Virus record (IMG/VR): IMGVR_UViG_3300005611_000007
Location: 32,001-96,000 of that record
Length of the DNA stretch: 64,000 nt
Strand: one strand, 5' to 3'
Source of the DNA: a virus
Taxonomy: Duplodnaviria; Caudoviricetes
The number at the start of each line of letters is the position of its first letter. Positions within the stretch are counted from its first letter, which is position 1. The notes beneath the pieces are model-generated. The model worked only from the letters and a program-made list of their open reading frames with translations, searched no databases and had not been told where the DNA came from. The position numbers were made by a program, and so were the translations under genes. Shown here in pieces: positions 1,052-59,065 of the stretch.

Positions 1052-1065
1052 ATCATCTCCAAAAA

Positions 1066-1139: not shown

Positions 1140-1143
1140 GTAT

Positions 1144-1218
1144 TGGCTCCTGGAGAGGGATTCGAACCCCCGACCGGGCGGTTAACAGCCGCCAGCTCTA
1201 CCACTGAGCTATCCAGGA
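1144..1218 (-). tRNA. tRNA-Asn(GTT)
   Basis: TCCTGGA/TCCAGGA acceptor, GGCGG-CTGTTAA-CCGCC anticodon arm, TTCGAAT, CCA. Confidence 0.95.
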
Positions 1219-1227
1219 ATAAATTCA

Positions 1228-1317
1228 TTAAGAGAACGCTACCATGTACATTAGGATAAGTGCCATCAGACAAGAGAAAGCAGTAAACTCGACCAACATC
1301 TTCAGAGCATTCAACAT
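1228..1317 (-). CDS. 29-aa hydrophobic peptide (MLNALKMLVEFTAFSCLMALILMYMVAFS)
   Basis: translated by hand; AAGGAG SD directly behind an early promoter. Confidence 0.5.
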   Translation of the reverse strand: MLNALKMLVEFTAFSCLMALILMYMVAFS

Positions 1318-1375
1318 CGTTTCTCTCCTTCGTTCATCATGTTTATATCATACCAAAAGAATTAATTTTTGTCAA
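1318..1375 (-). promoter_or_regulatory. early sigma70-type promoter cassette, family B
   Basis: TTGACA-17-TATGAT then ATAAACATGATGAACGAAGGAG. Confidence 0.85.
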
Positions 1376-1592
1376 CCAATATCTCAAAATCTGGATCATT
1401 TTTTAAAGCGATCCAACGATGGTCACCCGTGGGGCTAAACACCATTGCAAAAGGTCCTGGCAGCGAACGGTGTTTGGTTGTTTGAATACGGTCGCGAATC
1501 TCGCTGATCCAAAACTCCGTACCAAATTGCTGGATGCGATTCTTACCGTGTTTGCTCTTACCTTTGAGCTGGATTTGATCACCTATTTGCAT
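1362..1592 (-). CDS. hypothetical early protein
   Basis: start MQIGD after AAGGAG SD; own promoter. Confidence 0.7.
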   Translation of the reverse strand: MQIGDQIQLKGKSKHGKNRIQQFGTEFWISEIRDRIQTTKHRSLPGPFAMVFSPTGDHRWIALKNDPDFEILVDKN

Positions 1593-1618
1593 AGTATCTC
1601 TCCTTTGCTTGTTCCGTT

Positions 1619-1665
1619 GTCTCACTCACTATAATCATTATCTTACAGTGGAGATTAAATGTCAA
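1619..1665 (-). promoter_or_regulatory. early promoter cassette, family A
   Basis: TTGACATTTAATC..-GATAAT then GATTATAGTGAGTGAGAC. Confidence 0.85.
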
Positions 1666-1671
1666 GCAAAA

Positions 1672-1950
1672 TTATTCATATTCCCGAAAATTTTTGATAG
1701 ACCATTTTTGAACGACCGGCGATCCATCGGCGCCTTCATCTACGACCACATACGCTACAGTCTTCTTAACAAGACCAATACGAGTTTCATCGTTACCAAC
1801 GAAAATCTTGTGGGGATATTCATCAGCAAACCAATCATCATTCTCAGCAAACTCAAACAAGTGATCATACTCCTTTTCTCGGAACTGACCCAGAACTTTG
1901 GAGTCAATTCCAATCGTGCGACGGTCGTTGGTATAAGGAGCAAACGCCAT
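1672..1950 (-). CDS. hypothetical protein
   Basis: start MAFAPY after GGAGG SD. Confidence 0.7.
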   Translation of the reverse strand: MAFAPYTNDRRTIGIDSKVLGQFREKEYDHLFEFAENDDWFADEYPHKIFVGNDETRIGLVKKTVAYVVVDEGADGSPVVQKWSIKNFREYE

Positions 1951-1951
1951 A

Positions 1952-2167
1952 TCAATCCTCCCACTTGACAGTGAAACCAACCTTCGCCTCAGCATTCCGC
2001 TTGGCGATGTCGAAGGTTTCGTACATCTCTACGAAATTTTTGCCAATCCAAAGTTCGTATTCATCATTAATATTTTCAATGATGTCAACTTCACTTACGG
2101 CATTGGTAGCCATCCAAGCGGTCTTGATATCGATGGCTTTGGTGTCGTATTTGGCAAACTTCATCAT
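1952..2167 (-). CDS. hypothetical early protein
   Basis: ORF directly behind a family A promoter. Confidence 0.65.
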   Translation of the reverse strand: MMKFAKYDTKAIDIKTAWMATNAVSEVDIIENINDEYELWIGKNFVEMYETFDIAKRNAEAKVGFTVKWED

Positions 2168-2229
2168 GTTTCTGTCTCTCTCTGTCTCACTCACTATAAT
2201 CATTATACTCGATGGAGATTAAAAGTCAA
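2168..2229 (-). promoter_or_regulatory. early promoter cassette, family A
   Basis: TTGACT-16-TATAAT plus GATTATAGTGAGTGAGACAGAGAGAGACAGAAAC leader. Confidence 0.85.
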
Positions 2230-2237
2230 CAGTTTTT

Positions 2238-2618
2238 TTATGCAATCTTCAAATTAAGTTCGTCCACCTCATCAAAACCAAAACTTGCAACCATGTGGTA
2301 CATGCCGTTCTCATCCATGATCACATCACCAACACTCAGGCTGTGCATGGGAAGAAACCGTTCGATGTTCTCTTCTGGACCCATATTACCAACATGGAAC
2401 ACACCATCAAGGCTATTAGCGGTGATGTTGCTGACATGCTCATAGTAACCTTTCTCAAAGGCTTCCTTGACCAGATGTCCAACAGGTTTACCAAACGACA
2501 TATCAATCTTCATACGCAGCACGTTCTTAGGAACAGCGCCGTGATCACCGGCGGCGTTGATGGTGTCAACTTCTGCATCGGTGAGGTTGATCTGGAAAAC
2601 TTTGTAAATGCCTGTCAT
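2238..2618 (-). CDS. YodL-like domain protein
   Basis: YKVFQI...HSLSVGDVI motif; paralog of 18383..18733. Confidence 0.6.
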   Translation of the reverse strand: MTGIYKVFQINLTDAEVDTINAAGDHGAVPKNVLRMKIDMSFGKPVGHLVKEAFEKGYYEHVSNITANSLDGVFHVGNMGPEENIERFLPMHSLSVGDVIMDENGMYHMVASFGFDEVDELNLKIA

Positions 2619-2680
2619 GTTTCTGTCTCTCTCTGTCTCATTCACTATAATCATTATATACGGTAGAGATTAAATGTCAA
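2619..2680 (-). promoter_or_regulatory. early promoter cassette, family A
   Basis: TTGACA-16-TATAAT; leader almost identical to 2168..2229. Confidence 0.85.
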
Positions 2681-2688
2681 CAGTTTTT

Positions 2689-3015
2689 TTACGATTTTGG
2701 AGATTTTTTTTCGGGCTTGGGCTGTACTGTTACCTCATGGAACCCTTCACCAGCAATCGTGGCACAAATCGTTTTTTGCCCTTCTATATAACCAATACGA
2801 ACAATGGTAAATGAACCCGTTTCAACATTTGCCCATATTTCCACCATAAATCTGCTATTGTCCGTAATTCCTCTATATAAAACTTTTTCTTCATATGTCT
2901 CAATAAGAGGTGTGATACCATCATCATAAGGAATACAGGTAACTCGTTGAGCGTCAGCGGTATTACTGAAACCTACCGAAAAGAGCAGGGTTAGGATGAA
3001 CAAGATTCTTTTCAT
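2689..3015 (-). CDS. secreted/periplasmic protein
   Basis: signal peptide MKRILFILTLLF..ADA; two Cys. Confidence 0.65.
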   Translation of the reverse strand: MKRILFILTLLFSVGFSNTADAQRVTCIPYDDGITPLIETYEEKVLYRGITDNSRFMVEIWANVETGSFTIVRIGYIEGQKTICATIAGEGFHEVTVQPKPEKKSPKS

Positions 3016-3661
3016 CGTAGAATCCTCTAATAGCATCGACCAGCGGAGAGATATAATCGTCTCTCTTGCCGAGAAAAATTTGTGGTTCCGATTCCTGATC
3101 TACTGCTATTAAAACGACAAATCGGTCCACTGGCGTACCTGTTAGTTCTTCAAACATCACACAATATGCGGTACATTGCATAAAATAATTATCGATCCAA
3201 TCACGTTTCTTTAATTTACGAGAAGTCTTGAAATCAACGATTGACGCTTTACCATTCCATTTACAGACAAGATCTACTCTACCCGCTATACCAAGATACT
3301 CAGAATATAACGGAACCTCTTGCCCATAAACCTCTTCTATCATACTATCTAGTGTATTTTGAACACTTAAAAACATCTCCTTATCTAAAGGAGACTTGAA
3401 AACAGGTTCAACATTATTTATATAGTCTTCACAAATTTTATGAAGCCTAGTACCTCTGGAAGATGCTTGTCCTGAAATTCGATTTGCCTCTTCTTCACCA
3501 ACTTTTTTTCGCCATGCCATAATACCGTCACGAGACAACCGACCAAGAACAGTGGTGATAGAAGGTAAGTCACCGGCAGGAGTATGATACATCCTGCCGG
3601 TTTCCTTATTCGTTGTTGCCTTGATATCAGGTAAACTTATTTGGCGATGTTGAAAAATCAT
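2963..3661 (-). CDS. PD-(D/E)xK exonuclease (Cas4-like fold, T4-like phage type)
   Basis: PSITT, RGTxLH, AGRVD, IVDFKT, YFMQ motifs. Confidence 0.85.
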   Translation of the reverse strand: MIFQHRQISLPDIKATTNKETGRMYHTPAGDLPSITTVLGRLSRDGIMAWRKKVGEEEANRISGQASSRGTRLHKICEDYINNVEPVFKSPLDKEMFLSVQNTLDSMIEEVYGQEVPLYSEYLGIAGRVDLVCKWNGKASIVDFKTSRKLKKRDWIDNYFMQCTAYCVMFEELTGTPVDRFVVLIAVDQESEPQIFLGKRDDYISPLVDAIRGFYDEKNLVHPNPALFGRFQ

Positions 3662-3971
3662 CTAATCCACTCACAATCATGTCTTCTGCTTCATATCCAG
3701 CAACATTGTCTGGAGCACCAATATCAGGAAACAAAGGGTCTACATCGCCGTAACCATATAAAAAATCATTATTCATTAGATGAACTCCGACCTTTTCTCG
3801 CCAACGAGTACCGTGAACTACATTCATATAACAATCTAATTGTTTTTCAATCAGTTCCAATAGATACTCATTTGTATACTTTCGAAGTTCATCTGCTTTA
3901 TATGGAATGTCCCAATCTTCTTCATTACGTACACAGTAATCTAAAACAAGTTCAATCAACTTTTCGCGCAT
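3627..3971 (-). CDS. hypothetical protein
   Basis: 114-aa ORF packed in the operon. Confidence 0.6.
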   Translation of the reverse strand: MREKLIELVLDYCVRNEEDWDIPYKADELRKYTNEYLLELIEKQLDCYMNVVHGTRWREKVGVHLMNNDFLYGYGDVDPLFPDIGAPDNVAGYEAEDMIVSGLDDFSTSPNKFT

Positions 3972-3973
3972 AT

Positions 3974-4714
3974 CTACAAAACTCCATGCTTTGCTTTTGA
4001 GATTATATAATCTTTCACGATACTGCTTCGCACAATATCGTCTTCCTCAAACTCTACTGTTTGAAACTCTTCTATTGTATCAAGAATTTTCATAAATGTC
4101 AATAATCCTTTTCTTTCTTCATCTCTAATAAGATCACTCTGTCTAAAGTCACCACAGAACATAATACGACTATTTTCACCAAGTCTGGTAATGATAGAAT
4201 CCAACTCATGGAAGTTTAAATTTTGAGCCTCATCAACTATTACAATCGTATCATCTAATGTTAGTCCACGAATATAAGATGTTGTAACAAAGTTGATAAG
4301 ATTCTTTGTTTTCAGAATCTCGTATGCATCGCCTCTTCCAAATAATTCACTACAGATGCTAGAGTATGGCGCTTCGTATACTTTGGATTTTTCTTTTTCG
4401 CTTCCTGGTAGAAATCCCATATCTCTTGTTGGGACTACCGAGCGAACAATGGTAACATTATGTTGGTCGCAGTCTTGGCTTAAAACGTCAGACAGTGCTA
4501 AGTAGAGTGATATGAAGGTCTTTCCTGTTCCTGCAAGACCATGCAGTAGAAGATTATATTCTTCGTCATAGTGATCAAAGGCTCGTTTTTGATTTTGTGT
4601 TTTCGGTTGAATAGATCGTATTCTAAGCGAATTACTCTGTTGTTTTCTCAGTTCTCTTTTTTGCCTTTTTGTAAGTTTACCTACGCCATAATCTTCTAGG
4701 TTAATAAGGGACAT
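3974..4714 (-). CDS. phoH: PhoH family ATPase
   Basis: GLAGTGKT, MGFLPG, RGLT, DEAQN, GDxxQSDL, DIVRS. Confidence 0.95.
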   Translation of the reverse strand: MSLINLEDYGVGKLTKRQKRELRKQQSNSLRIRSIQPKTQNQKRAFDHYDEEYNLLLHGLAGTGKTFISLYLALSDVLSQDCDQHNVTIVRSVVPTRDMGFLPGSEKEKSKVYEAPYSSICSELFGRGDAYEILKTKNLINFVTTSYIRGLTLDDTIVIVDEAQNLNFHELDSIITRLGENSRIMFCGDFRQSDLIRDEERKGLLTFMKILDTIEEFQTVEFEEDDIVRSSIVKDYIISKAKHGVL

Positions 4715-4735
4715 TTATTAGTTCCTTTGTGCGAG

Positions 4736-5059
4736 TTAAAGTTTTACAGAATCTCCACGTATAGCTCGCTGTTTTCTCCACTTCTCTACGGCTTGTCTTG
4801 TTTTAACCTCCTTTGTTGACTTTGTTGACCCTCTAGAAGCGGCCAGTTCGCTGGTTGGATGAGCATCAGAGATTTTACTCATTATATCATTCCAACCACC
4901 ATCATTACGCAAACCTCCAACTCCAGAAACAATGTTCATAGAGTTAAAGACTTGTTTAATTTGAGGATTTTTTTTAAGGTAACTTTCTTTTTCTGAGATT
5001 GACATAATGTCATCCCATTCCATGCCTGATTGTTCATTAAAAAATGTATAAGTTGGCAT
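4736..5059 (-). CDS. FmdB-like conserved phage protein (no Cys)
   Basis: MPTYTF start; typical neighbour of phoH in T4-like phages. Confidence 0.65.
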   Translation of the reverse strand: MPTYTFFNEQSGMEWDDIMSISEKESYLKKNPQIKQVFNSMNIVSGVGGLRNDGGWNDIMSKISDAHPTSELAASRGSTKSTKEVKTRQAVEKWRKQRAIRGDSVKL

Positions 5060-5081
5060 TAGTCCTCCTTATCTCTATTTA

Positions 5082-5903
5082 TCAAATAGTGTCTTTTGTT
5101 TCATCAAAATCTCTAGAAAACACGCTTTTGAAATTTTCTTTCCAAAGATCAGAATATTCGCTATCCTGATATAATCTAAAAACAGGTGAACCTAAAGTAT
5201 GATGAATGTTAGATGGAAGTTCATCTTTTTCTAATCCGTAATAATCTCGATCCATTGGTTCGTCTACTAGATAATTCCATTTTAAAGGAAGTTCTCCAAT
5301 ATCATTATCATCGAACCCTTGAAATCTATGAAGATATGCCGGATCTTTTGTATCAGCTAATTTAAAGGTCATCTGTTTGCTTTTATCATGAAGACAATTC
5401 CACAGTGTAACAGAAGACCAGTTCTTTCTAGGATAATTCTCTTGGGGAGTACCATGCATCTTATAACGAGATGCAGAAGAATAATCGTGTTTACAAACAG
5501 AAACTGGTTTGGACAAGTCCGCCACTTTTAATAAATTCCAAACAGATTCAGTAAACATCATATCACAATCTAAAAATAAAGAATATCTTTCTAATAAACC
5601 TTTATATTTATTTTCTATACTTTCAGGATATTGCATATGTAATCTTGTGATAGGAACACAAAGAAATCTAGTCATAGAAAATTCTGTAGATCCTCTTTTA
5701 TCTAATTTTCTTGATGTATATTCATTGGCATAAAGTTGATTGTAGATCAAAGGAATAATTACAAAATCTTTTCTATGATTACTATATTTTCTAATTGTAT
5801 GCGCTAGTATTTTAGCGCAGAAATCTTCTTTAGAATCATATCCTATGAATATGGTTAAAGTAGTGCTTCCTGCTTTTTCTAGTGGATCAAAAAGAAATGT
5901 CAT
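5082..5903 (-). CDS. GT-A (GT8-like) glycosyltransferase
   Basis: IFIGYD, STEFSxTRF, DCD, YPRKNWSS, WNYL. Confidence 0.8.
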   Translation of the reverse strand: MTFLFDPLEKAGSTTLTIFIGYDSKEDFCAKILAHTIRKYSNHRKDFVIIPLIYNQLYANEYTSRKLDKRGSTEFSMTRFLCVPITRLHMQYPESIENKYKGLLERYSLFLDCDMMFTESVWNLLKVADLSKPVSVCKHDYSSASRYKMHGTPQENYPRKNWSSVTLWNCLHDKSKQMTFKLADTKDPAYLHRFQGFDDNDIGELPLKWNYLVDEPMDRDYYGLEKDELPSNIHHTLGSPVFRLYQDSEYSDLWKENFKSVFSRDFDETKDTI

Positions 5904-6525
5904 CTGTTAACATCTGCTCAAACATTGAATAAGACAAACCATGCATATTATTGGATTGACATCTGTAAAACTCATATTGTTTATCAAAAACAAATATAAA
6001 GTCTACAAGATGATTATGCGACATAAACCAATCTAGATATCTAATTCTATTTGGATTATCCGCAGCTCTTGTTCTTGTTTCAGCCTTTCCTTTAAACATA
6101 TTGCTGATAGATTGAGTCTCGTCGTTTTTAATTAAAGAGTCGAATCCTAATATATATAACACCGAACAACCTGTTCTTATAGCACATTTCATAGCAAACA
6201 TACCAGTATTAGAACGAGGACGAGGACCAGCGTGTCCATGATAAAACATAGACTCTACATGGTCCTCAATATCTTCTGGATAAATTATAGGGGACTGGTC
6301 TTCTTTTTCTAACTGGTCTCTCCTATACTCTTCAATGGTAACATGATAATCTACTTTATTAGGATCGTCAAATCCTTTGTAAGCAACGCCACACGAGTAG
6401 ATTAAAAGATTTTCTTTATTAACAAGATTATTTAAATTGAAATTTTGTCTTGTAGTACCATTACCTATAATAACAGCCGATTTACGATTTATGAATGGTA
6501 TCTTCTGAAACATCTTCACCTTCAT
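5887..6525 (-). CDS. Maf/sialyltransferase-like Rossmann-fold protein
   Basis: VIIGNG...NTG..A...YILGFD. Confidence 0.55.
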   Translation of the reverse strand: MKVKMFQKIPFINRKSAVIIGNGTTRQNFNLNNLVNKENLLIYSCGVAYKGFDDPNKVDYHVTIEEYRRDQLEKEDQSPIIYPEDIEDHVESMFYHGHAGPRPRSNTGMFAMKCAIRTGCSVLYILGFDSLIKNDETQSISNMFKGKAETRTRAADNPNRIRYLDWFMSHNHLVDFIFVFDKQYEFYRCQSNNMHGLSYSMFEQMLTDDISF

Positions 6526-6661
6526 TTAAATTAAATTTATTTTTTAAAGATTCTTGGCGTTCTTCTCTCATTTTTCGAAATTTTTTTACTCGTCGTGGAT
6601 TATCATAATCATCGTAATCTTCATCCCACTTGTTACGGCGAGCCCGAAAAGTCTTAGACAT
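6482..6661 (-). CDS. small charged hypothetical protein
   Basis: MSKTFR start, packed between neighbours. Confidence 0.55.
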   Translation of the reverse strand: MSKTFRARRNKWDEDYDDYDNPRRVKKFRKMREERQESLKNKFNLNEGEDVSEDTIHKS

Positions 6662-6666
6662 AACTA

Positions 6667-7092
6667 TTACCAATCCTTTGCTTCTGTGAAAGTTTTCTTA
6701 ATAAGCGCCTTAGTGATTCCTTTATAAGGACTCTTTTTATTTTTGATGGACAACATCATTAGAGCATCGTCTGGATCCATAGATTCCAGAAATTCGATAA
6801 ACATCGTTTCCCGTTTAATCGGTTTGATGTTTTCATACTGACCTTTAATAAAATACTTTATTCTACGAAAATCGTGATATAGGTAATTTTGTAAATCAGA
6901 CTCTTTTGGTTGTGGTTTGTATGGTGGATCACCCTCTGGGAGATCAAATAATACTTTCGGATCAAACATTAGTCTGAACATAAGTATCAATGGTATACAG
7001 GTCTTTGACGATTCTTGTAAATACGCAATTTTCTCATTTTCTGTCTTTAACTTAGACGCCTTTTCAATAATTTCAGCAATACCATCTTTCAT
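6667..7092 (-). CDS. conserved T4-like phage protein
   Basis: FDP..LPEGDPPY, KRE.MFI..LE motifs; usual neighbour of rnh. Confidence 0.75.
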   Translation of the reverse strand: MKDGIAEIIEKASKLKTENEKIAYLQESSKTCIPLILMFRLMFDPKVLFDLPEGDPPYKPQPKESDLQNYLYHDFRRIKYFIKGQYENIKPIKRETMFIEFLESMDPDDALMMLSIKNKKSPYKGITKALIKKTFTEAKDW

Positions 7093-32448: not shown

Positions 32449-33195
32449 TTAAGATTTAGGAAACAGATTAAATGGTGAGAAGTTAGAAGTGTATCTAGCG
32501 TCTCCAATGGTTAGACGGAACATCGCAATTTTGCCTTGGAAAACTCGAAAACTTGAAAGTCCCCATAAACCAATACGAAACGCGACCCAAGGAGATGCGC
32601 CGATATCAGTACTATTAGTTCCTGTTGCTTCTTGAACACCGTCAGCAAACAAACGGTAGGTAGTTCCAGAACGACTAAAGGCCCAATGATGATAGGCCCC
32701 GCTATTCCAAGTAACCCCGCTGGCACTAGAAGCTACACTGCCATCATTACAACCCATCTCTGCCGCCGGTGGATATGCATATGGTCCTAATGTAGTATCA
32801 TAGAACCAAGGAAAGTTAAGTGTCGAACCGTGATTGGCATCGACGGACGCACCTGTCATACAATTCAAGCCTGATGTTGTCCCCGTACATAAGGCAATTG
32901 TCTCAATACAGAAGTCACCTGTTCCGGGTTTTAGTCCAGCATCGTCTGAAAAAGTTAAGTAATATACTTGAGCTTCAGTTCCGAAATCCATTGCATATCC
33001 CGTTGGACTGGCAGCGTCCGAGACAATTGATACTGGTCCAGTATTAGTTACCGTCCGTGCTTTCGATGACTTATCGAGAATAGTTGCGTCACCATCTTCT
33101 GGCATTAATAAAAGTTCTACATTATTGAAGAGTGAATCTGTCTCACCACCCGCTGGAGGAGCAGTTCCAATTCCTAAATAAGATCTTGCTGTCAT
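32449..33195 (-). CDS. LamG/concanavalin-A lectin domain protein
   Basis: GDFCIE, HHWAFSRSG..LFADG, FRLTIG.ARYTSNF. Confidence 0.8.
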   Translation of the reverse strand: MTARSYLGIGTAPPAGGETDSLFNNVELLLMPEDGDATILDKSSKARTVTNTGPVSIVSDAASPTGYAMDFGTEAQVYYLTFSDDAGLKPGTGDFCIETIALCTGTTSGLNCMTGASVDANHGSTLNFPWFYDTTLGPYAYPPAAEMGCNDGSVASSASGVTWNSGAYHHWAFSRSGTTYRLFADGVQEATGTNSTDIGASPWVAFRIGLWGLSSFRVFQGKIAMFRLTIGDARYTSNFSPFNLFPKS

Positions 33196-33689
33196 TTAAC
33201 TGTCTTCCTTATATCTACTTTTTCTTCAGTCTTTGTTGGCAAACTACCAGGAACTAAATCTGGACATTGACCATTTACTTCATCTGGTAATGGTTTTGCT
33301 CCAGTGACCAATTCATTACATCTCAGAGCATCCTTTGTAGCTCTATTTATCTTTATGCTCCATTTGACTGGATCTTCTATTGCTTTTCTACCAATGTCAC
33401 GCGCTTTGCCGCTAGAGTCTGTATCAAACTTATTATTTAGATTAACTACATTCTGTTCAGCGGCAATTATCTTGGTATTCAACTCTTGTTGAATTTCAGC
33501 CATCTTTTGAATGTCTGCTTGCATTCTCTCCATTGTTACCTTTTGTTCTTCTGCTACTTCTAATGCGCGCTGAGTTTTTTGCTCTTGTGCTTCAAGTTTA
33601 GCTTCAAGCATTTGCGTATAGAAGTAACCACCGGCGCCTAATCCACCGATGATTAACAGAAGAATTAAAGGAACTAAGATACGAGACAT
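33192..33689 (-). CDS. i-spanin-like protein
   Basis: N-terminal TM, coiled coil, RC.EL.TGA..N.QCP. Confidence 0.7.
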   Translation of the reverse strand: MSRILVPLILLLIIGGLGAGGYFYTQMLEAKLEAQEQKTQRALEVAEEQKVTMERMQADIQKMAEIQQELNTKIIAAEQNVVNLNNKFDTDSSGKARDIGRKAIEDPVKWSIKINRATKDALRCNELVTGAKPLPDEVNGQCPDLVPGSLPTKTEEKVDIRKTVK

Positions 33690-52681: not shown

Positions 52682-53048
52682 TTTCTTCCTTTTCATTCAA
52701 AGCAGTGATGATAATATGTACTAGAATTCCACCAATATGATCATTGAAATGAATATTATTTTCAGTCAATTCGTGTGGATTTTTTACGAAATCAAAATCA
52801 AATTTCAAAGTTGCTTCGTCTTTTTCATCGATTTCTTTTACAGATATTGTATTGTATCTAATGATTGTACCATTATAACGTTCGTCAGTCAACCTAATAG
52901 GTACAGTTGATTTACCATCATCTAGTTTATCTACTATTTCATAAGTATCGTCATACTGTGAAAATTTTTCAAGATCAATCTTCGGCACTATCCGTCTCAC
53001 TCTGATCTGTTTCTCCATAACCGCCAACGAGCTCTCTTTCTTCTCCAT
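52605..53048 (-). CDS. gp40-like protein
   Basis: between uvsX and 41 as in T4; start uncertain. Confidence 0.5.
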   Translation of the reverse strand: MEKKESSLAVMEKQIRVRRIVPKIDLEKFSQYDDTYEIVDKLDDGKSTVPIRLTDERYNGTIIRYNTISVKEIDEKDEATLKFDFDFVKNPHELTENNIHFNDHIGGILVHIIITALNEKEENEAGNTDTESSHSQRELFEESSSIS

Positions 53049-54051
53049 ATTTGAATTCCTTTGCAGCAGCCTGTTCTAGTCTTTCCATGACATCTTCTGT
53101 AAAAAACTTTTCCGGTTCTGCGTTGATTGCTTTAGCAAAATGTTTAGATCCATCAGGAAACTCATAACGAGTTGATACCTTCTTGATAACATCGTACTTC
53201 TCGGCAAGGTCAAGAAGACCATAATAACGATCCAAACCAGTCGTATAGTTTAGACGTACTTCAATCGTCTTATTTGGCTTGGTAAAACGTGACTTTTGTG
53301 TGCTAACTTTGATTAGATTACCCTCATCCTTTTCAGTATCTTTATCTCTTTTCTTTGAAAGAAAAAGAATTGTAGAAGCGGTATACTTTAGACCAGAACC
53401 GCCAGACATTACTTTCGTTGGTATATAAGAACCAACTGCATCATATGTATGGTTTGTAATAACCATCGGAACCTGCGCTTTAGATAAACGTAGACCTAGA
53501 GTACGAAACGCAGCCTTAATTACTTGCGCCTTGGTCATATCCCGAGTTTCTTTACCCTCGGTACTATCTTCCATTTCTTTTGTTGTAGATAATTGACCGA
53601 GAGAATCAAGAACCATCATCATTGGTGGTCTATTATTTTTGTGTTCTGTGTATCTTTCTAAAACTTGTAACGCATTATGTCGAAACTGCTGAATTGTTTG
53701 TGGTTCAGATACAACAATACGATGAATGTCAATACCACGAGTAGACATCATTTCCTGTGTTACTGCTGCTTCAGTATCATAATAGATAACGCCACCATGA
53801 TCGTTTTGTTGTAAAAAGTTATTGACCATTCCTAATGCAAAGAAAGTCTTTCCCGTTGCTTCTTCACCAGCGAGAGCAGTGATTTTGTTATTTGACACAC
53901 CGCCGTAAAGACTGCCACTGATAAGAGCATTAAGAATGAAACACCCAGTATCAACCCACCCAGAAAACTCAGAAGAATTACCACCATCGGATAAAAGATG
54001 TGTGTTTTCATCGTTGAGTTCCTTTACCATATCTTTAAAAAAATTAGACAT
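52975..54051 (-). CDS. uvsX: UvsX RecA-like recombinase
   Basis: AGEEATGKT, DTE, LDSLG, SGGSGLKY. Confidence 0.93.
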   Translation of the reverse strand: MSNFFKDMVKELNDENTHLLSDGGNSSEFSGWVDTGCFILNALISGSLYGGVSNNKITALAGEEATGKTFFALGMVNNFLQQNDHGGVIYYDTEAAVTQEMMSTRGIDIHRIVVSEPQTIQQFRHNALQVLERYTEHKNNRPPMMMVLDSLGQLSTTKEMEDSTEGKETRDMTKAQVIKAAFRTLGLRLSKAQVPMVITNHTYDAVGSYIPTKVMSGGSGLKYTASTILFLSKKRDKDTEKDEGNLIKVSTQKSRFTKPNKTIEVRLNYTTGLDRYYGLLDLAEKYDVIKKVSTRYEFPDGSKHFAKAINAEPEKFFTEDVMERLEQAAAKEFKYGEERELVGGYGETDQSETDSAED

Positions 54052-54085
54052 TATTTCTCCTTTTCAATCAAAGTTTTATTAGCAT

Positions 54086-54114
54086 TATCATATAACATTT
54101 CTGCCAACTTGTCA
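54086..54114 (-). promoter_or_regulatory. sigma70-type promoter for uvsX (approximate limits)
   Basis: TTGACA-17-TATGAT. Confidence 0.65.
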
Positions 54115-54178
54115 ACAACTTTTTTCATTTTACTGTTATCTTTCTGCTCATAAATACGAGAGCAGAAGGATTAGCAGT

Positions 54179-54964
54179 ATGGTTCATTACCAGAGCATTT
54201 TTATATCAGACATCCATCTAGGCACAAGAGGATGTAAAGCAGACGAACTATGTGCCTTCCTTAAAACAAATACCTGTGAAAATCTATTTCTTGTGGGCGA
54301 CATACTAGACGGTTGGCGTTTAAAGAAACGTTGGTACTTTCCGCAAAGCCACGCAAACGTAATACGCAGAATCCTTACAGCAGCCAAGCGCGGCACTAAA
54401 GTCTATTATATACTTGGCAACCACGACGAAGCACTTCGTCCATACGTTTCTTACAATATAGACATTGGTCGCATTAAAGTCTTAAATCGTTATACATACA
54501 ATGCTGTTAATGGTAAGCGTTATCTTGTTATCCACGGTGACTTCTTTGACAAGATAATGACAGACAACAAATGGCTAATGTTTGTTGGCGATAACATCTA
54601 TGATTTCCTCATCTGGACGAACACTAAACTAAACATAATTCGTGGCTGGTTAGGGATGGACTACTGGAGTCTATCCAAGTTCCTAAAAGCAAAGACAAAA
54701 CAGGCACTAAACTTCATACATAAGTTTGAAGAACACGTAGCAAAATACTGTGAAGAAAAAGGTTATGACGGTATTGTCTGCGGACACATACACACAGCGG
54801 CAATGAAGAATGTAAACGGCATTGAATATATGAATGATGGAGATTGGGTAGAAAGTCTAACTGCACTTGTAGAACACGAAGACGGTCGCTGGGAGATTAT
54901 CTATTGGGAGGGCAAAGATGGAATAGATCTTATTGATAACAGCGATGCACGTGAACAATCCTGA
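54179..54964 (+). CDS. metallophosphoesterase, PlcP-like phospholipase C (LpxH-like annotation family)
   Basis: FISDIHLG.RGC, GDILDGW, GNHDE, HGD, CGHIH, NDGDWVES.TA. Confidence 0.85.
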   Translation: MVHYQSIFISDIHLGTRGCKADELCAFLKTNTCENLFLVGDILDGWRLKKRWYFPQSHANVIRRILTAAKRGTKVYYILGNHDEALRPYVSYNIDIGRIKVLNRYTYNAVNGKRYLVIHGDFFDKIMTDNKWLMFVGDNIYDFLIWTNTKLNIIRGWLGMDYWSLSKFLKAKTKQALNFIHKFEEHVAKYCEEKGYDGIVCGHIHTAAMKNVNGIEYMNDGDWVESLTALVEHEDGRWEIIYWEGKDGIDLIDNSDAREQS

Positions 54965-55035
54965 CGATGTTCCTGTACGTATTGGATAAAGTTCAAACAG
55001 TTTAAGTTGGAGACAAAATGTCAAAAAAAATCCTC
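54918..55035 (+). pseudogene. possible decayed small gene
   Basis: GGGAGG SD then M-E-stop-ILLITAMHVNNPDDVP; a shifted frame reads WIKFKQFKLETKC. Confidence 0.35.
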
Positions 55036-56019
55036 ATTATAACAGATAACATACCGGAGCAGATAAATGGAGTTGTCACTACCTACAAAAACATTGAACC
55101 GTATGCGTTACGCGATGGTTATACTATTGATTATATCCATCCCGGCCGGTACCGCTACATTGATCTCCCTTTCTATAACGAAGTCAAAGTTGCCATTCCG
55201 AGAGATATGGGACAAGAGATTCAGAAGATACGTCCAGATTATATCCACATCGCCACGGAAGGTCCTATCGGTGTGTTTGCTAGAAGGCATCTTGCAGTAT
55301 CTGGTCTTAGGTACAATACTGCTTACCATACTAAATTTCCTGAAGCTCTAAAGAAAATGCTACACATACCAGAGTTTATTACTTGGCCATTAATACGCTG
55401 GTTCCACGCAAAGTCAAACAAGGTATTAACAACTACGCCAAGCATGGTAAAACAACTACGAAGCAAAGGATTTGGCGATAATGTTGTACCTTGGACACGA
55501 GGCGTTGATAGAGATCAGTTCTTCCCCCTACAATATCGTTCAGAGCGTAAGGTGCCTGTGCTGTTATGTGTAAGCCGTGTAAGCGAAGAAAAGAACCTAG
55601 AAGAGTTTTATGAGATGGACTTTGGAGAGTGTGTAAAGGTACAGGTAGGTGATGGTACTATGCTTGAAACACACAAGAAAAAATATCCTGATGTTCAGTT
55701 CGTAGGAGCCAAGCGAGGAGCAGGACTTGTCCGCCATTATCAAGAAGCAGATGTATTTGTATTCCCAAGTCGCTGGGATACATTTGGTATTGTAATGATT
55801 GAAGCAATGGCGTGTGGTACACCTGTTGCGGCATATCCTACACAAGGACCTGTTGATGTTATTGAACAAGGTGTTACTGGATACATGGATGAAGATTTAG
55901 TAACAGCAACAAAACAAGCACTTACACTGGATCGCAACGCAGTTTATAATAACAGCACAAACTGGAGTTGGGAAGAAGCCTGGCATATTTTTAGAGATAA
56001 CTTGGTTAAGATAGTATAA
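55018..56019 (+). CDS. GT4 glycosyltransferase, Agt-like glycolipid synthase
   Basis: TD..P.Q.NGVVTT, HIATEGP.G, YHT.FPE, W.RGVD, DTFG.V..EA.ACGTPV. Confidence 0.85.
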   Translation: MSKKILIITDNIPEQINGVVTTYKNIEPYALRDGYTIDYIHPGRYRYIDLPFYNEVKVAIPRDMGQEIQKIRPDYIHIATEGPIGVFARRHLAVSGLRYNTAYHTKFPEALKKMLHIPEFITWPLIRWFHAKSNKVLTTTPSMVKQLRSKGFGDNVVPWTRGVDRDQFFPLQYRSERKVPVLLCVSRVSEEKNLEEFYEMDFGECVKVQVGDGTMLETHKKKYPDVQFVGAKRGAGLVRHYQEADVFVFPSRWDTFGIVMIEAMACGTPVAAYPTQGPVDVIEQGVTGYMDEDLVTATKQALTLDRNAVYNNSTNWSWEEAWHIFRDNLVKIV

Positions 56020-56081
56020 TGGTTAAAGAAAAGAAAGTATTAAACACAGCGTTGTTAGATGGCACGGTGATAGTTGTAAAT

Positions 56082-56537
56082 CTATTTCTCGTTAAAAAAC
56101 TCTCCTGACAAGATCTTCTCAACTTTTTCCATTTGTTTTTCAATGATAGGACCACGACCAGGCCAATGGATATACTCCTGGTTTTGTGTCCTATACAAAC
56201 TTGAAAGCAGCGGCATAACAATCTTTGCCATCTCATTCACTTTCTGATTGGCAACACTGTCTGCTAGTTGCTTTCGTTCTTCTACGATGGTATCATTATC
56301 ATATATCAAACTAAGTAATGTGTCAACTTTTTTTTCCATATTTCTTAAACTATCTAACTTTCTTTCAAGTCGTTGTTCAAGCGATGCCAAATCATCTTTA
56401 GCAGCAAGAGCGGGTTTATCTGCTCTGACCAAGTCTTCTTCTTCAATGACCTTCTTACGATATGTGTCCTCATCAACGGCTGTAAGACCAGAAGTCCATC
56501 CGGTCATATCCATATCGTCCCAAATATTCTTACTCAT
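56082..56537 (-). CDS. conserved T4-like protein downstream of gp43
   Basis: G.TAVDE, PLL..L...EYI.WP.R. Confidence 0.75.
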   Translation of the reverse strand: MSKNIWDDMDMTGWTSGLTAVDEDTYRKKVIEEEDLVRADKPALAAKDDLASLEQRLERKLDSLRNMEKKVDTLLSLIYDNDTIVEERKQLADSVANQKVNEMAKIVMPLLSSLYRTQNQEYIHWPGRGPIIEKQMEKVEKILSGEFFNEK

Positions 56538-59019
56538 GAAAGAAGTCCTCCAAGTTGTTTTGTTTCTCAGCATTCCAACCCATAGCATCAAGAATAATTT
56601 TGACTGGATCTAGAAAAGTTTTCTCAAGCTGAGTATCATAGTCAATATATTGTGCCAACTCAAACTCTTTTGGCAGGACGGTTACAAATCCCATAACATT
56701 TTCCATAATGGGATTTGGCATTTTCATATATAGAAACTTCATCTTGTTACCAGATTGGATCTGCTCATACTTACTAGTTAACTTATGTTTCTTCAATTGG
56801 TCATTGTATAATAGTGCAGCACGAACATGTATTGGCGTACCGGATTTATATAGACTTGAGCTATCTTCAAACTTTCGAACATCTGATACACCACGAGGGA
56901 AGGCGATTTCTTCTGGTGTTAGATCCATCCACTTTTCTCGTAACTCTTCAATCCATTTCTGAACTTCATCTTCACTTTGAGTTACCACCTTCTTCAGTGT
57001 ATCCATAATCAATTCTTTGACTATCTGCGGAGTAGAAGAACGAACGGCTTCAATACCAGTCACTTTCAACTTTGGTTCAGCAAATCTCACACCTTCACTG
57101 TCCCAAACATGTGCAATGTATCGTTTCTTCGCTGTCCAGATGGCTTTATCGGCGATGATTTCACGTTTCATCACCATCTTCTGTTGTGGTGCTTTCATAT
57201 AGTCAGCAAGTTGTTGATACCCTTTATCTAGATGTTTCTCAATTTCTCCTGATGCTTTGTTTAGAAAGTCTACGATCTTTGTCTTGTTTGTCTCATTTGG
57301 TAGTATCTTCTGTACCAATGGACTCATGTTGAGATACACAGAATCGGTATCAATCGCAATAACATAGTCTTCGTTAGTCTTCAGTATATTGTTTAGATAT
57401 TCATTAAGAATCTTCTCAGCCCATCTAATAGTAAACTGACCTGATACAGTTATTGCCTCTGCAACACGTTGATCAAAATATCTGAAATATTTATTTGCTA
57501 ACGCTCCATAGAAAGAGTTCATTGCAATCTTGATAGCCATCTGGTTGTTGTCGAGAATGGATATCTCTCGTTCAATACTTTTAGATTTTTCCTTCTCATA
57601 TCTCTGTTTTGCGTCTATCATATTTTGTTTGATAACAACTCTTTCATTGTAATATGATTGAATAACCTGTGGGATGATACCTTCTATGTCATTACGAAAC
57701 AACTGACCTGTAGCAGTAAGACACATTCCATTTGGTATATCTAAATCAGGCATCTCTAGTAGTTTATCAACGTTTACTCCAGATACAATATCATTTACTA
57801 CAGTCTCTGGACTCATATTGTATTGCATAATGAGATGTGGATAAAGTGAATTCAAATCAAAAGAAACTACCCAATTATGAAGACCTACCTGCGGATTTTT
57901 AACGTAACCACCTTCAATTGTATCATACCGTGAATCGGTCTTAGGTGGAACTACAATTTTTCTAGATTTGAACTCGTTATACAGTATAGCATCCCATATA
58001 CCAACAGTACCAAGAGTTTCTCCTAAAGAACATTTAGCGCGATAAGCCATGGTAAGTACTAAGTCAATCAGTCCTAACTTATCTTCAATCTTATCAACCA
58101 ACTCAACGTCTTTTACATTATACTCTACGAACTTTTGATAGTCATGCTTATATAGCATATGCAAAGAACCATACTCACTATAGTCTAATTTCTTCTCACC
58201 TAAAACTACATTAGCGATATGATCTAGTTTATAAGATTCTTGTTGTCCTAATGTATTAATTGTAAATTTTTTGAATAAATCAATATAGTCTAATTGCGTA
58301 ACACCAACTATGTTGAAACCAACATGTTGAACTCCGGCGATATATACGTTGTTTTCACGAACAAGTTTCCATGGTGACAGAGACTTCACCATATCCTCAC
58401 CAAAGATTCTTGCAATACGATTGACAAGATAAGGCACATCAAAAAACTCTGAATACCATCCAGTAAGAATATCTGGAACATGATCAGCCCAATAATCAAT
58501 GAAATCTAATAGCAGTTCTCTCTCGTTTTTGCATTTACGATAGAGAACAGACATTCCGCTTTTGTCTGGATTGAAGTCATATAATCCCCATGTGTGGTAG
58601 ATAGTACCATTATTATTTTTGATAGTAATGGTAATGATCTCATGTTTAGCATCACGTGGTTCTGGAAATCCGTCTTCTGATGCTACCTCAATATCGATTG
58701 TACAGATATTGATACGAGTACGATCATACTTGATTGTCTTAGGAAATGCGTCTGAAATGAATTGATGGACATAGTTGGTTGTTCCATACACCGTGAAGTT
58801 ATCTACATCGGCATACTTGTCCATAAACTCTTTACAATCTCTCATAGATCCAGGTTGTACAGAATCTACAGTACGTCCATCGAGAGTATTCCATGTACCC
58901 TTTGGTGATGGAATGTAAAGTGTTGGTTCAAACTTGACCTTCTTAGTAATCTGTGTCTTGTTATTGTAACCACGAAACAGAATCTGATTACCGTATCGAT
59001 CTACATTAGTGTAAAAAAT
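56530..59019 (-). CDS. 43: family B DNA polymerase (T4 gp43); probable ATT start
   Basis: DIEV, SFDLNSLYP, KIAMNSFYG, DTDS; start reassigned from SD spacing. Confidence 0.95.
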   Translation of the reverse strand: MFYTNVDRYGNQILFRGYNNKTQITKKVKFEPTLYIPSPKGTWNTLDGRTVDSVQPGSMRDCKEFMDKYADVDNFTVYGTTNYVHQFISDAFPKTIKYDRTRINICTIDIEVASEDGFPEPRDAKHEIITITIKNNNGTIYHTWGLYDFNPDKSGMSVLYRKCKNERELLLDFIDYWADHVPDILTGWYSEFFDVPYLVNRIARIFGEDMVKSLSPWKLVRENNVYIAGVQHVGFNIVGVTQLDYIDLFKKFTINTLGQQESYKLDHIANVVLGEKKLDYSEYGSLHMLYKHDYQKFVEYNVKDVELVDKIEDKLGLIDLVLTMAYRAKCSLGETLGTVGIWDAILYNEFKSRKIVVPPKTDSRYDTIEGGYVKNPQVGLHNWVVSFDLNSLYPHLIMQYNMSPETVVNDIVSGVNVDKLLEMPDLDIPNGMCLTATGQLFRNDIEGIIPQVIQSYYNERVVIKQNMIDAKQRYEKEKSKSIEREISILDNNQMAIKIAMNSFYGALANKYFRYFDQRVAEAITVSGQFTIRWAEKILNEYLNNILKTNEDYVIAIDTDSVYLNMSPLVQKILPNETNKTKIVDFLNKASGEIEKHLDKGYQQLADYMKAPQQKMVMKREIIADKAIWTAKKRYIAHVWDSEGVRFAEPKLKVTGIEAVRSSTPQIVKELIMDTLKKVVTQSEDEVQKWIEELREKWMDLTPEEIAFPRGVSDVRKFEDSSSLYKSGTPIHVRAALLYNDQLKKHKLTSKYEQIQSGNKMKFLYMKMPNPIMENVMGFVTVLPKEFELAQYIDYDTQLEKTFLDPVKIILDAMGWNAEKQNNLEDFFHE

Positions 59020-59032
59020 GATAAACCTCCTT

Positions 59033-59065
59033 AAAAAAATGGGAGAGCATTGATACTCTCCCATT
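59033..59065 (-). terminator. hairpin plus U-run overlapping the gp43 promoter
   Basis: AATGGGAGAG-8-CTCTCCCATT then more T. Confidence 0.7.

What the first reader, a model, noticed from the sequence alone, without database searches (positions are those of the whole stretch)
54122..56019. Phage-borne PlcP + Agt-like membrane lipid remodelling module
Seen: a plus-strand two-gene insert between gp43 and uvsX encoding a metallophosphoesterase and a GT4. Upstream are 11-bp-spaced heptads TTTTCAT-n4-CTGTTAT-n4-CTGCTCA (54122..54150) and CATAAATA. Known: in SAR11, roseobacters and rhizobia, PlcP strips phospholipid head groups and Agt glycosylates the diacylglycerol under PhoB control; the Pho box is CTGTCAT-n4-CTGTCAT. 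Inference: the phage mines host membrane phosphate for DNA synthesis while keeping the membrane intact. This fits with phoH in the same window. The Pho box match is weak.
Basis: partly seen in the sequence, partly recalled or inferred. Interest (0 to 1): 0.8.

Follow-up and report, generated by a model that had tools for sequence, protein, structure and literature searches.

The report
Phage-borne PlcP–Agt membrane lipid-swap cassette
An uncultured marine T4-like phage has picked up the two bacterial enzymes that replace phosphate-containing membrane lipids with sugar lipids, so it can probably take phosphorus from its host's membrane, but here the genes look wired to the phage's own late-gene switch, not to the host's phosphate-starvation switch.

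Summary
The two genes are real and are a true insert. Thirteen near-identical phage contigs (UvsX 93-98%, gp43 94-98% identical) have gp43, a 151-aa gene and uvsX contiguous. This phage carries an extra 2,031 bp (54052-56082) on the opposite strand, flanked by an 8-bp repeat.

Gene 1 is a PlcP-family metallophosphoesterase, not LpxH. It scores 53 bits against the LpxH model (cut-off 134; true LpxH 207-328) and groups with the alphaproteobacterial genes that sit in front of agt.

Gene 2 is an Agt/GTcp-clade GT4. All 14 residues shown essential in the SAR11 enzyme are conserved.

The Pho box is not supported. It has three mismatches, a level reached about eight times by chance in this window, and it is not conserved in relatives. 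Two of the three "heptads" form the 5' arm of a strong hairpin (-25 kcal/mol, z = -6.6). The hairpin buries the ribosome-binding site and shows CATAAATA, the late-promoter motif of marine T4-like phages, in its loop. This is the design of T4 gene e.

phoH lies in the window and a pstS-like gene lies 6 kb outside it.

I found no paper describing phage plcP. This scan has already noted the cassette in at least 50 other genomes. No enzyme activity has been tested.

The parts
52975..54051 (-). uvsX recombinase, left neighbour of the insert
   Evidence: Pfam RecA and PHROG 97 UvsX-like, E 3e-80
54052..56082 (.). 2,031-bp insert that is absent from 13 near-identical phage contigs. An 8-bp direct repeat GAGAAATA (- strand) flanks it at 54052-54059 and 56083-56090. 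Similarity to the relatives already falls from about 56119.
54087..54115 (-). sigma-70-like promoter TTGACA-17-TATGAT facing uvsX. It lies inside the insert. A near-copy at 56298-56326 lies inside the 151-aa gene's reading frame (56082-56537), downstream of its start.
54122..54152 (+). As a Pho box this is a 3-mismatch match at chance level.
54131..54179 (+). Leader hairpin of about 19 pairs. The 5' arm is 54131-54149, the loop 54150-54159 and the 3' arm 54160-54179. The 3' arm covers the Shine-Dalgarno AAGGA (54166-54170) and reaches the A of the AUG.
   Evidence: MFE -25.3 kcal/mol, z = -6.58, 0 of 200 shuffles as stable. The same design occurs in L038/L039 with z = -5.9. Three compensatory pairs. 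No Rfam family matches.
54149..54156 (+). CATAAATA, which matches NATAAATA, the late-promoter motif of marine T4-like phages. It lies at the top of the hairpin, 23 nt before the ATG.
   Evidence: PMC2984593
54179..54964 (+). plcP-like gene, 261 aa. It encodes an intracellular metallophosphoesterase of the PlcP (phospholipase C) family with no signal peptide.
55018..56019 (+). agt-like gene, 333 aa. It encodes a GT4 glycosyltransferase of the Agt/GTcp diacylglycerol glycosyltransferase clade.
56082..56537 (-). Conserved 151-aa gene of unknown function between gp43 and uvsX, the right neighbour of the insert. The listed ORF 56006-56236 is an off-frame artefact of this gene.
56530..59064 (-). gp43 family-B DNA polymerase
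   Evidence: PHROG 262, 1035 bits
3974..4714 (-). phoH, in the same window
   Evidence: Pfam PhoH, 148.7 bits

Best explanation
This is a mobile two-gene auxiliary cassette that this phage lineage carries at the junction of the 151-aa gene and uvsX, a junction its closest relatives have uninterrupted.

How it most likely works:
1. Inferred from sequence: the phage's late transcription machinery starts at CATAAATA. The late transcript begins inside the 3' arm of the leader hairpin, so the ribosome-binding site is free. Any longer transcript entering from upstream would fold the hairpin and stay untranslated, as in T4 genes e, soc, 49 and I-TevI.
2. Family membership shown, activity inferred: the PlcP-type enzyme has no signal peptide and an LpxH-like lipid-enzyme fold. 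It cuts glycerophospholipids of the host inner membrane into diacylglycerol and a phosphorylated head group.
3. Family membership and active-site residues shown, activity inferred: the Agt-type GT4 transfers a sugar from a UDP-sugar to the diacylglycerol. This makes glucosyl-, galactosyl- or glucuronosyl-diacylglycerol, so the membrane stays a bilayer.
4. Inferred: host enzymes recover the head-group phosphorus for phage nucleotide synthesis. This complements the phage's pstS-like and phoH genes.

Control by host PhoB is unlikely in this phage.
For: Insert: 13 relatives lack it and both junctions are mapped.

Not LpxH:
- The NCBIfam LpxH models score 53 and 36 bits against cut-offs of 134 and 190.
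- True LpxH in 39 of 41 Gammaproteobacteria scores 207-328 bits, and second paralogues in the same genomes score 26-52 bits.
- phmmer finds no LpxH structure at E <= 0.01.
- The tree splits LpxH from an 87-row clade that holds the window protein (SH-aLRT 100 and 99).

PlcP family:
- 146 of 401 sampled Alphaproteobacteria have a homologue at mostly 44-54% identity.
- 19 of 20 fetched loci have the GT4 directly downstream. This is the 'type 2' plcP-agt arrangement of HTCC7211 and Erythrobacter NAP1 (PMC4796936).
- All metal-binding motifs are invariant: D11, H13, D41, N81, H82, H119, H203, H205.
- The AlphaFold model (pLDDT 83) has LpxH structures as all of its first 25 listed PDB hits, at 16-21% identity.

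Agt:
- All 14 residues found essential in GTcp are conserved, including Asp in place of the usual Glu (PMC8231724).
- The GT4s adjacent to plcP form one clade against other GT4s (SH-aLRT 100).
- The model has a GT-B fold at pLDDT 92, and its best hits are MshA and BshA.

Truly viral and recurrent: at least 110 IMG/VR contigs carry the gene, and 57 of 80 fetched loci also carry other T4-like genes of this window, at many different positions.

Regulation; PMC3014915.

Phosphorus theme: phoH and a pstS-like gene in this phage; plcP beside pstS in phage Mosig.
Against: - No activity, lipid or transcript data exist for any phage copy.
- No experimentally characterised PlcP or Agt sequence could be put in the trees. 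The link runs through named Kordiimonas and Erythrobacteraceae loci and through residues published for GTcp.
- The trees used a quick search under LG+G4.
- The late-promoter motif starts with C, not T, and ATAAATA is not enriched in the window as a whole (19 found, 26.8 expected).
- No + strand gene or promoter was found upstream whose transcripts the hairpin would need to silence.
- Hairpin covariation rests on three sequences.
- Late expression fits phosphorus supply for DNA replication less well than early expression would.
- The host is unknown.
Confidence: 0.68

Rival explanations
1. The enzymes are the same, but the purpose is different. The late-made PlcP-Agt pair changes the host membrane for the phage's own ends, such as blocking superinfection, stabilising or priming the membrane before lysis, or changing surface properties. 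Phosphorus release would be a by-product.
For: The leader points to late expression, when most nucleotide demand has already been set. Work on pelagimyophages interprets phage glycosyltransferases as surface modifiers (PMC7029224).
Against: The cassette travels with pstS and phoH in this phage and sits beside pstS in Mosig. Some viral copies carry Pho-box-like repeats. In T4-type phages DNA synthesis continues through the late period.
Confidence: 0.17
2. One reading: the cassette is switched on by host PhoB through the Pho box at 54122-54150.
For: The heptads have 11-bp spacing. No sigma-70 -35 element was found on the + strand. Pho-like TGTMAY-N5-TGTMAY repeats lie upstream of plcP in 4 of 41 non-redundant viral leaders against 0.004 expected.
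Against: The site is a 3-mismatch match, with 8.4 such matches expected per window. It does not fit the relaxed pattern found in other phages. It is not conserved in L038/L039, which keep the hairpin and TATAAATA. Two of the heptads are accounted for as a stem arm.
Confidence: 0.08
3. The database-label reading: LpxH (lipid A synthesis) plus a cell-wall or LPS glycosyltransferase that alters the host's lipopolysaccharide.
For: JGI names the homologues LpxH and 'glycosyltransferase involved in cell wall biosynthesis'. The fold is LpxH-like.
Against: Scores lie far below the LpxH cut-offs, the protein falls in a separate clade, and it co-occurs with true LpxH as a second paralogue. The GT4 carries the DAG-binding and His-Asp signature of GTcp.
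Confidence: 0.03
4. A recently acquired passenger with no function in this phage, or an assembly chimera.
For: It is present in this contig but absent from all 13 closest relatives.
Against: Both frames are intact and every catalytic residue is kept. G+C content matches the phage, 0.40-0.43 against 0.35-0.39 nearby. The insert has a phage-type leader, supplies uvsX with its own promoter and has clean junctions. The same pair occurs in many T4-like contigs.
Confidence: 0.04

Closest known systems
Bacterial PlcP-Agt lipid renovation operon: 'type 2' plcP-agt of SAR11 HTCC7211/HTCC7217 and Erythrobacter sp. NAP1, PlcP of Phaeobacter MED193 (PMC4796936), and GTcp of HTCC7211 (PMC8231724)
   Same: The gene order and spacing are the same. 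The phosphoesterase belongs to the same family, at 44-54% identity to alphaproteobacterial copies. The GT4 belongs to the same clade, at 36-43% identity, with all 14 functionally tested residues kept.
   Different: The cassette is encoded by a lytic T4-like phage, inside the replication gene block and on the opposite strand. Viral PlcP sequences fall mostly outside a well-supported alpha/gammaproteobacterial clade (SH-aLRT 96), and the viral Agt sequences form one clade of their own (SH-aLRT 94). The leader carries a late-promoter hairpin and no convincing Pho box.
Phage phosphate-stress auxiliary genes: pstS, phoA and phoH of cyanomyophages, and pstS of pelagimyophages (PMC12379486)
   Same: These are host-derived phosphorus-related genes carried as variable islands in marine T4-like phages. 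This phage also has phoH and a pstS-like gene.
   Different: Those genes act on uptake of external phosphorus. This cassette would mobilise an internal pool, the membrane phospholipid. I found no paper describing phage plcP.
LpxH (UDP-2,3-diacylglucosamine diphosphatase)
   Same: It has the same metallophosphoesterase core with a helical cap, and LpxH structures are the closest solved structures.
   Different: Identity is 16-21%. Scores lie below the family cut-offs and the protein sits in a separate clade. In Gammaproteobacteria the PlcP type occurs as a second paralogue beside the true LpxH.
T4 translational hairpins with an internal late promoter: genes e, soc, 49 and I-TevI (PMC3014915)
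   Same: The Shine-Dalgarno sequence and AUG are paired in a stable helix. The late-promoter motif is placed so that late transcripts would lack the 5' arm.
   Different: This is predicted only. The motif is CATAAATA. No upstream early transcription unit on the same strand is evident.
Pelagibacter phage Mosig EXVC030M gene Mosig_00120, annotated 'putative UDP-2,3-diacylglucosamine hydrolase'
   Same: It is a PlcP homologue (58% identity) in a cultured T4-like phage, with ATAAATA 12 nt before its start.
   Different: It has no agt partner. It lies divergent to pstS. According to PMC4796936 its host HTCC1062 lacks plcP.

Membership tests
PlcP (phospholipase C of the metallophosphoesterase superfamily) | Complete calcineurin-like metal-binding motifs (DxH, GD, GNHD/E, H, GHxH) | tested here: met
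   D11, H13, D41, N81, H82, H119, H203 and H205 are invariant in 45 sequences. Pfam Metallophos E 1e-15.
PlcP (phospholipase C of the metallophosphoesterase superfamily) | Groups with the alphaproteobacterial genes that precede agt, apart from LpxH | tested here: met
   Tree of 100 rows, with the split supported at SH-aLRT 100 and 99. 19 of 20 alphaproteobacterial loci have the GT4 downstream.
PlcP (phospholipase C of the metallophosphoesterase superfamily) | BLASTP E < 1e-40 to Phaeobacter MED193 PlcP, the criterion of PMC4796936 | not testable with these tools
   No tool gave the MED193, S. meliloti or HTCC7211 sequence. The window protein matches unnamed Alphaproteobacteria at E down to 1.8e-88, mostly 1e-66 or better.
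PlcP (phospholipase C of the metallophosphoesterase superfamily) | Phospholipase C activity that releases diacylglycerol | not testable with these tools
   Needs an enzyme assay or lipidomics.
PlcP (phospholipase C of the metallophosphoesterase superfamily) | Pho-box / PhoB control | tested here: not met
   The site is a 3-mismatch match at chance level and is not conserved.
Agt / GTcp clade of GT4 diacylglycerol glycosyltransferases | GT4 with a GT-B fold | tested here: met
   Pfam Glyco_transf_4 plus Glycos_transf_1. Model pLDDT 92, with best hits among retaining GT4 enzymes such as MshA and BshA.
Agt / GTcp clade of GT4 diacylglycerol glycosyltransferases | His-Asp catalytic dyad (Asp where other GT4s have Glu) and UDP-sugar residues G16, G82, G85, R190, K195, T257, F258, G259, E264 | tested here: met
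   The window has G18, G82, G85, H104, R187, K192, D254, T255, F256, G257 and E262. Its motifs read SRVSEEKN and FPSRWDTFG (residues from PMC8231724).
Agt / GTcp clade of GT4 diacylglycerol glycosyltransferases | Diacylglycerol-binding residues H104, T162, R163, W320 | tested here: met
   H104, T160, R161 and W318 in the window; H and W are invariant in 82 homologues.
Agt / GTcp clade of GT4 diacylglycerol glycosyltransferases | One clade with the plcP-adjacent GT4s, apart from other GT4s | tested here: met
   SH-aLRT 100 against six other GT4s. The outgroup is small.
Agt / GTcp clade of GT4 diacylglycerol glycosyltransferases | Synthesis of glucosyl-, galactosyl- or glucuronosyl-diacylglycerol | not testable with these tools
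   Needs expression and lipid analysis.
LpxH | Score above the curated equivalog cut-offs | tested here: not met
   NF003743 gives 53.3 bits against 134, and TIGR01854 gives 36.1 against 190. True LpxH scores 207-328 bits.
T4-type late-promoter translational hairpin (genes e, soc, 49, I-TevI) | SD and AUG sequestered in a stable helix, with the late promoter placed so that late transcripts lack the 5' arm | tested here: met
   -25.3 kcal/mol, z = -6.6, with CATAAATA in the loop. The same design occurs in L038/L039. This is a prediction only.
T4-type late-promoter translational hairpin (genes e, soc, 49, I-TevI) | Earlier, longer transcripts that read into the gene | tested here: inconclusive
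   No + strand gene or sigma-70-like promoter lies upstream. No transcript data are available.

The most novel reading that the evidence does not exclude
Phage-encoded lipid renovation is a widespread, unrecognised way for aquatic T4-like phages to mine the host membrane for phosphorus. It can give the ability to hosts that lack it; Mosig's host HTCC1062 has no plcP. It behaves as a presence/absence island within near-identical phage populations. It comes in at least two regulatory forms, one with a phage late promoter and one with a host Pho box. If so, part of the 'bacterial' plcP and viral 'lpxH' signal in ocean metagenomes is really phage plcP.
Probability: 0.45. Interest if true: 0.75.

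Novelty: new variant of a known kind. Interest (0 to 1): 0.6.

Why it matters
Phosphorus limits growth over large parts of the ocean, and phage particles are rich in phosphorus. The known phage responses, pstS and phoA, act on external phosphate. A phage-borne PlcP-Agt pair would tap an internal store, the host's own membrane, while keeping the cell intact until lysis.

Four consequences follow:
- It would change how plcP abundance in metagenomes is read. PMC4796936 left many metagenome sequences unassigned, and virome surveys count 'lpxH' among surface-water AMGs (PMC10653327).
- The empty site in 13 near-identical phages gives a direct test: recruit reads to the filled and empty junctions along phosphate gradients.
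- The cultured phage Mosig on HTCC1062 offers a laboratory system for the PlcP half.
- The leader suggests that the T4 gene e type of translational control is also used for acquired metabolic genes.

Tried and rejected
- LpxH identity: rejected on model cut-offs, tree position and paralogue co-occurrence.
- Mre11/gp47-type nuclease (PHROG 7339, E 1e-7): rejected because LpxH structures are the best fold matches and because of clade membership.
- Pho box at 54122: at chance level and not conserved. Another near-perfect consensus at 33189-33206 lies at a - strand gene junction with no + strand gene after it, so I took it as chance.
- Pho box in front of the phage's own pstS-like gene: none with up to 3 mismatches.
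- Known RNA family for the leader: none.
- Composition anomaly of the insert: none of note.
- Host assignment failed. No psbA in the 127-kb contig, and core proteins are only about 50-60% identical to cyanomyophages. The closest cellular PlcP (68%) lies on a genuine Verrucomicrobiota chromosome next to aspS and an lptD-like gene. The viral Agt clade is sister to three small, AT-rich alphaproteobacterial genomes, which are SAR11-like but unnamed (SH-aLRT 88).
- ORF 56006-56236 as a gene: it is an off-frame shadow of the 151-aa gene.
- The tallies each include one unpublished genome (G245, G449). No sequence from either genome was used in a tree.
Full report
WHAT IS THERE

The window is part of a 126,920-base IMG/VR viral contig, about 70% complete. 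It comes from an uncultured T4-like myovirus. Its gp43 and gp41 are only about 50-60% identical to those of cultured cyanomyophages, and the contig has no psbA.

Most of the window is transcribed on the - strand. Of about 104 called genes, only two convincing cassettes lie on the + strand. One of them is the finding:
- 54179-54964, 261 aa, Pfam Metallophos.
- 55018-56019, 333 aa, Pfam Glyco_transf_4 plus Glycos_transf_1.

Both lie between uvsX (52975-54051, -) and gp43 (56530-59064, -).

IT IS AN INSERT

A scan of IMG/VR with UvsX returned 13 contigs of near-identical phages: UvsX 93-98%, gp43 94-98% and gp41 98-99% identical. In all 13 both genes are absent. Where the contig reaches far enough, gp43, a 151-aa gene and uvsX are contiguous, and the stop of the 151-aa gene overlaps the uvsX start (TAATG).

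Alignment and translation fix the junctions:
- The window's 151-aa gene is 56082-56537 (-). The listed ORF 56006-56236 is an off-frame shadow of it.
- The extra DNA is 54052-56082, 2,031 bp.
- GAGAAATA is present at both ends (54052-54059 and 56083-56090, - strand) but only once in the relatives.
- Similarity to the relatives already falls from about 56119, and the first 25 nt or so of uvsX also differ. This suggests that the cassette came by recombination from a related phage that already had it at this site.
- The insert brings a sigma-70-like promoter (TTGACA-17-TATGAT, 54115-54087, -) that faces uvsX. A near-copy at 56326-56298 lies inside the 151-aa gene's reading frame.
- G+C content is unremarkable.

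GENE 1 IS PlcP-TYPE, NOT LpxH

Public sources call the homologues LpxH. Four results argue against that label:
- The NCBIfam LpxH equivalogs score 53.3 bits (cut-off 134) and 36.1 bits (cut-off 190).
- In 41 sampled Gammaproteobacteria, 39 have a true LpxH at 207-328 bits. About ten also have a second paralogue at 26-52 bits, the range of the phage protein.
- phmmer against all PDB sequences finds no LpxH at E <= 0.01.
- A 100-row tree separates 12 true LpxH (E. coli included) from an 87-row clade that holds the window protein, viral contigs, Alphaproteobacteria and the gammaproteobacterial paralogues. Support is SH-aLRT 100 and 99 on long branches.

The protein's own family is widespread in Alphaproteobacteria. 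In 401 sampled genomes, 146 have a homologue, mostly at 44-54% identity. In 19 of 20 loci that I fetched, and in the named Kordiimonas, Croceicoccus, Parvibaculales and Roseomonas loci, a GT4 follows directly. This is the 'type 2' plcP-agt arrangement that Sebastian et al. describe for SAR11 HTCC7211/HTCC7217 and Erythrobacter NAP1 (PMC4796936).

All metal-binding motifs are invariant. The first motif starts at residue 11, so there is no signal peptide. The AlphaFold model (pLDDT 83) has a phosphoesterase core with a helical insertion at 131-194. All of its first 25 listed PDB matches are LpxH, at 16-21% identity. So it is a lipid-enzyme fold, but a different family.

GENE 2 IS Agt/GTcp-TYPE

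Wei et al. (PMC8231724) characterised the HTCC7211 enzyme. They showed by mutagenesis that these residues are needed:
- G16, G82, G85, R190, K195, T257, F258, G259 and E264 for the UDP-sugar.
- The H104-D256 dyad, with Asp where other GT4s have Glu.
- H104, T162, R163 and W320 for diacylglycerol.

The window protein has every one: G18, G82, G85, H104, T160, R161, R187, K192, D254, T255, F256, G257, E262 and W318. Its motifs read SRVSEEKN and FPSRWDTFG.

The plcP-adjacent GT4s, viral and bacterial, form one clade against six other GT4s (SH-aLRT 100). All 26 viral sequences plus the window form one sub-clade (SH-aLRT 94). That sub-clade is sister (SH-aLRT 88) to three small (1.4 Mb), AT-rich (31-33% G+C) alphaproteobacterial genomes, which are SAR11-like although their names are withheld. 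The model (pLDDT 92) has a GT-B fold and is closest to retaining GT4s such as MshA and BshA.

THE CASSETTE IS A RECURRENT PHAGE GENE SET

A limited pattern scan found at least 110 IMG/VR contigs with a homologue at 54-77% identity. About 60% of the 80 loci fetched have an Agt-type GT4 directly downstream. In 57 of the 80, other genes of this T4-like window occur within 6 kb, next to many different phage genes. In L067, L083 and L085 the pair again lies beside gp43.

Cultured Pelagibacter phage Mosig has plcP (58% identity) without agt, divergent to pstS. According to PMC4796936 its host HTCC1062 lacks plcP.

In the PlcP tree the window sits in a mostly viral sub-clade. That sub-clade also holds a Verrucomicrobiota copy (68% identity) on a genuine chromosome next to aspS and an lptD-like gene, and a copy from a Henriciella contig with 60% G+C. 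So exchange between phages and bacteria has happened more than once.

REGULATION: NOT A Pho BOX HERE

The consensus CTGTCAT-N4-CTGTCAT with up to 3 mismatches matches 11 times in the window against 8.4 +/- 3.0 expected, and the site at 54122 is one of the 3-mismatch matches.

The region folds instead into a hairpin (54131-54179, -25.3 kcal/mol, z = -6.58, none of 200 shuffles as stable). Its 5' arm contains the second and third 'heptads'. Its 3' arm pairs the Shine-Dalgarno AAGGA and runs up to the AUG. Its loop shows ATAAATA.

CATAAATA fits NATAAATA, the late-promoter motif reported for marine T4-like phages (PMC2984593). Contigs L038/L039 (PlcP 74% identical) keep the design with a perfect TATAAATA. 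Their outer stem differs in sequence but still pairs, and they have no Pho-like heptads. Three pairs show compensatory changes, though among only three sequences.

ATAAATA lies within 45 nt of the start codon in 8 of 42 non-redundant viral plcP leaders, Mosig included. The expectation is 0.78 (P < 0.001), and the motif is found in 0 of 26 bacterial leaders. On the + strand of this window it occurs only twice, each time in front of one of the two + strand cassettes.

This is the arrangement documented for T4 genes e, soc, 49 and I-TevI. There, long early transcripts are untranslatable, and late transcripts that start inside the structure are translated (PMC3014915).

Three caveats apply:
- No upstream + strand transcription unit is evident.
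- ATAAATA is not enriched in the window overall.
- Nothing has been measured.

Pho-box-like repeats (TGTMAY-N5-TGTMAY) do occur upstream of plcP in 4 of 41 other viral leaders (expected 0.004). PhoB control is therefore plausible for some phages, but not for this one.

PHOSPHORUS CONTEXT

phoH is in the window. A pstS-like gene (127 bits) lies about 6 kb before the window's start, and it has no canonical Pho box either.

LITERATURE

The ones aimed at a phage-encoded plcP or agt found no such paper.
- The pelagimyophage survey reads phage glycosyltransferases as O-antigen modifiers (PMC7029224).
- The Mosig announcement does not mention the gene.
- A virome study lists 'lpxH' among surface-water AMGs (PMC10653327). 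This may well be plcP, but that is my inference.

The library is limited to open-access papers and preprints.

Within this scan, the same cassette has already been noted in at least 50 other genomes. Those are unchecked AI notes that agree with the gene identities found here.

VERDICT

The gene identities are well supported (about 0.9). The lipid-swap mechanism is the best reading, but it rests on inference from family membership. The phosphorus-mining purpose is plausible. The Pho-box claim fails here and is replaced by a late-promoter hairpin model (about 0.55).

LIMITS
- No characterised PlcP or Agt sequence was available for the trees.
- The trees used a quick search under LG+G4.
- The tallies each include one unpublished genome (G245, G449), and neither was used in a tree.

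Noticed in passing
window 33189-33206 (+): CTGTCATTTAACTGTCTT is a 1-mismatch match to the Pho-box consensus. It lies across a - strand gene junction (its 'CAT' is a start codon on the - strand) and no + strand gene follows. It is probably chance.
   Followed up: partly
own genome G000:C1:25883-26731 (-), about 6 kb before the window start (locus L192): A pstS-like phosphate-binding protein gene (Pfam PBP_like_2, 127 bits). Its leader has TGTAAC/TGTTAA/TGTAAC repeats at 13-bp spacing, not 11-bp, and no canonical Pho box.
   Followed up: partly
window 56298-56326 and 54087-54115 (-): Two near-identical sigma-70-like promoters (TTGACA-17-TATGAT, 11 of 12 matches). One lies inside the 151-aa gene's reading frame, downstream of its start. 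The other lies inside the insert and faces uvsX, which in relatives has no promoter of its own.
   Followed up: partly
window 56082-56537 (-): A conserved 151-aa gene between gp43 and uvsX with no Pfam or PHROG match. Its last 12 residues or so differ from those of the 13 close relatives, starting about 35 nt before the insert junction.
   Followed up: partly
L047 (IMG/VR contig of 12.7 kb), 111-6286: plcP-agt is followed by PRPP synthetase and three tetrapyrrole genes (hemB, hemE, hemC). This is either a phage with heme-pathway AMGs or a misfiled bacterial fragment.
   Followed up: partly
L004 (Coraliomargaritaceae MAG, 212-kb contig), 3887-4771: This is the closest cellular PlcP (68% identity). 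It sits on a genuine Verrucomicrobiota chromosome between aspS and an lptD-like gene, has no agt, and is nested inside the mostly viral clade. That points to phage-to-bacterium transfer or gives a hint of the host.
   Followed up: partly
L001 (Pelagibacter phage Mosig, MT647606) 4903-6738: The plcP homologue, annotated as an LpxH-type hydrolase, lies divergent to the phage's pstS. The published host HTCC1062 is reported to lack plcP.
   Followed up: partly
L076, L077, L090, L092, L100-L111 leaders (about 40 nt before the plcP start): A second conserved leader type: TATATAAT followed by a short hairpin (GACTCC...GGAGTC) whose 3' arm is the Shine-Dalgarno sequence, directly before the ATG.
   Followed up: no
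L187 (Synechococcus phage S-SRM01) 3995-4699: A distant homologue (35% identity) annotated as LpxH lies next to split psbA and homing endonuclease genes, without a GT4. It sits on a long branch in the tree.
   Followed up: no
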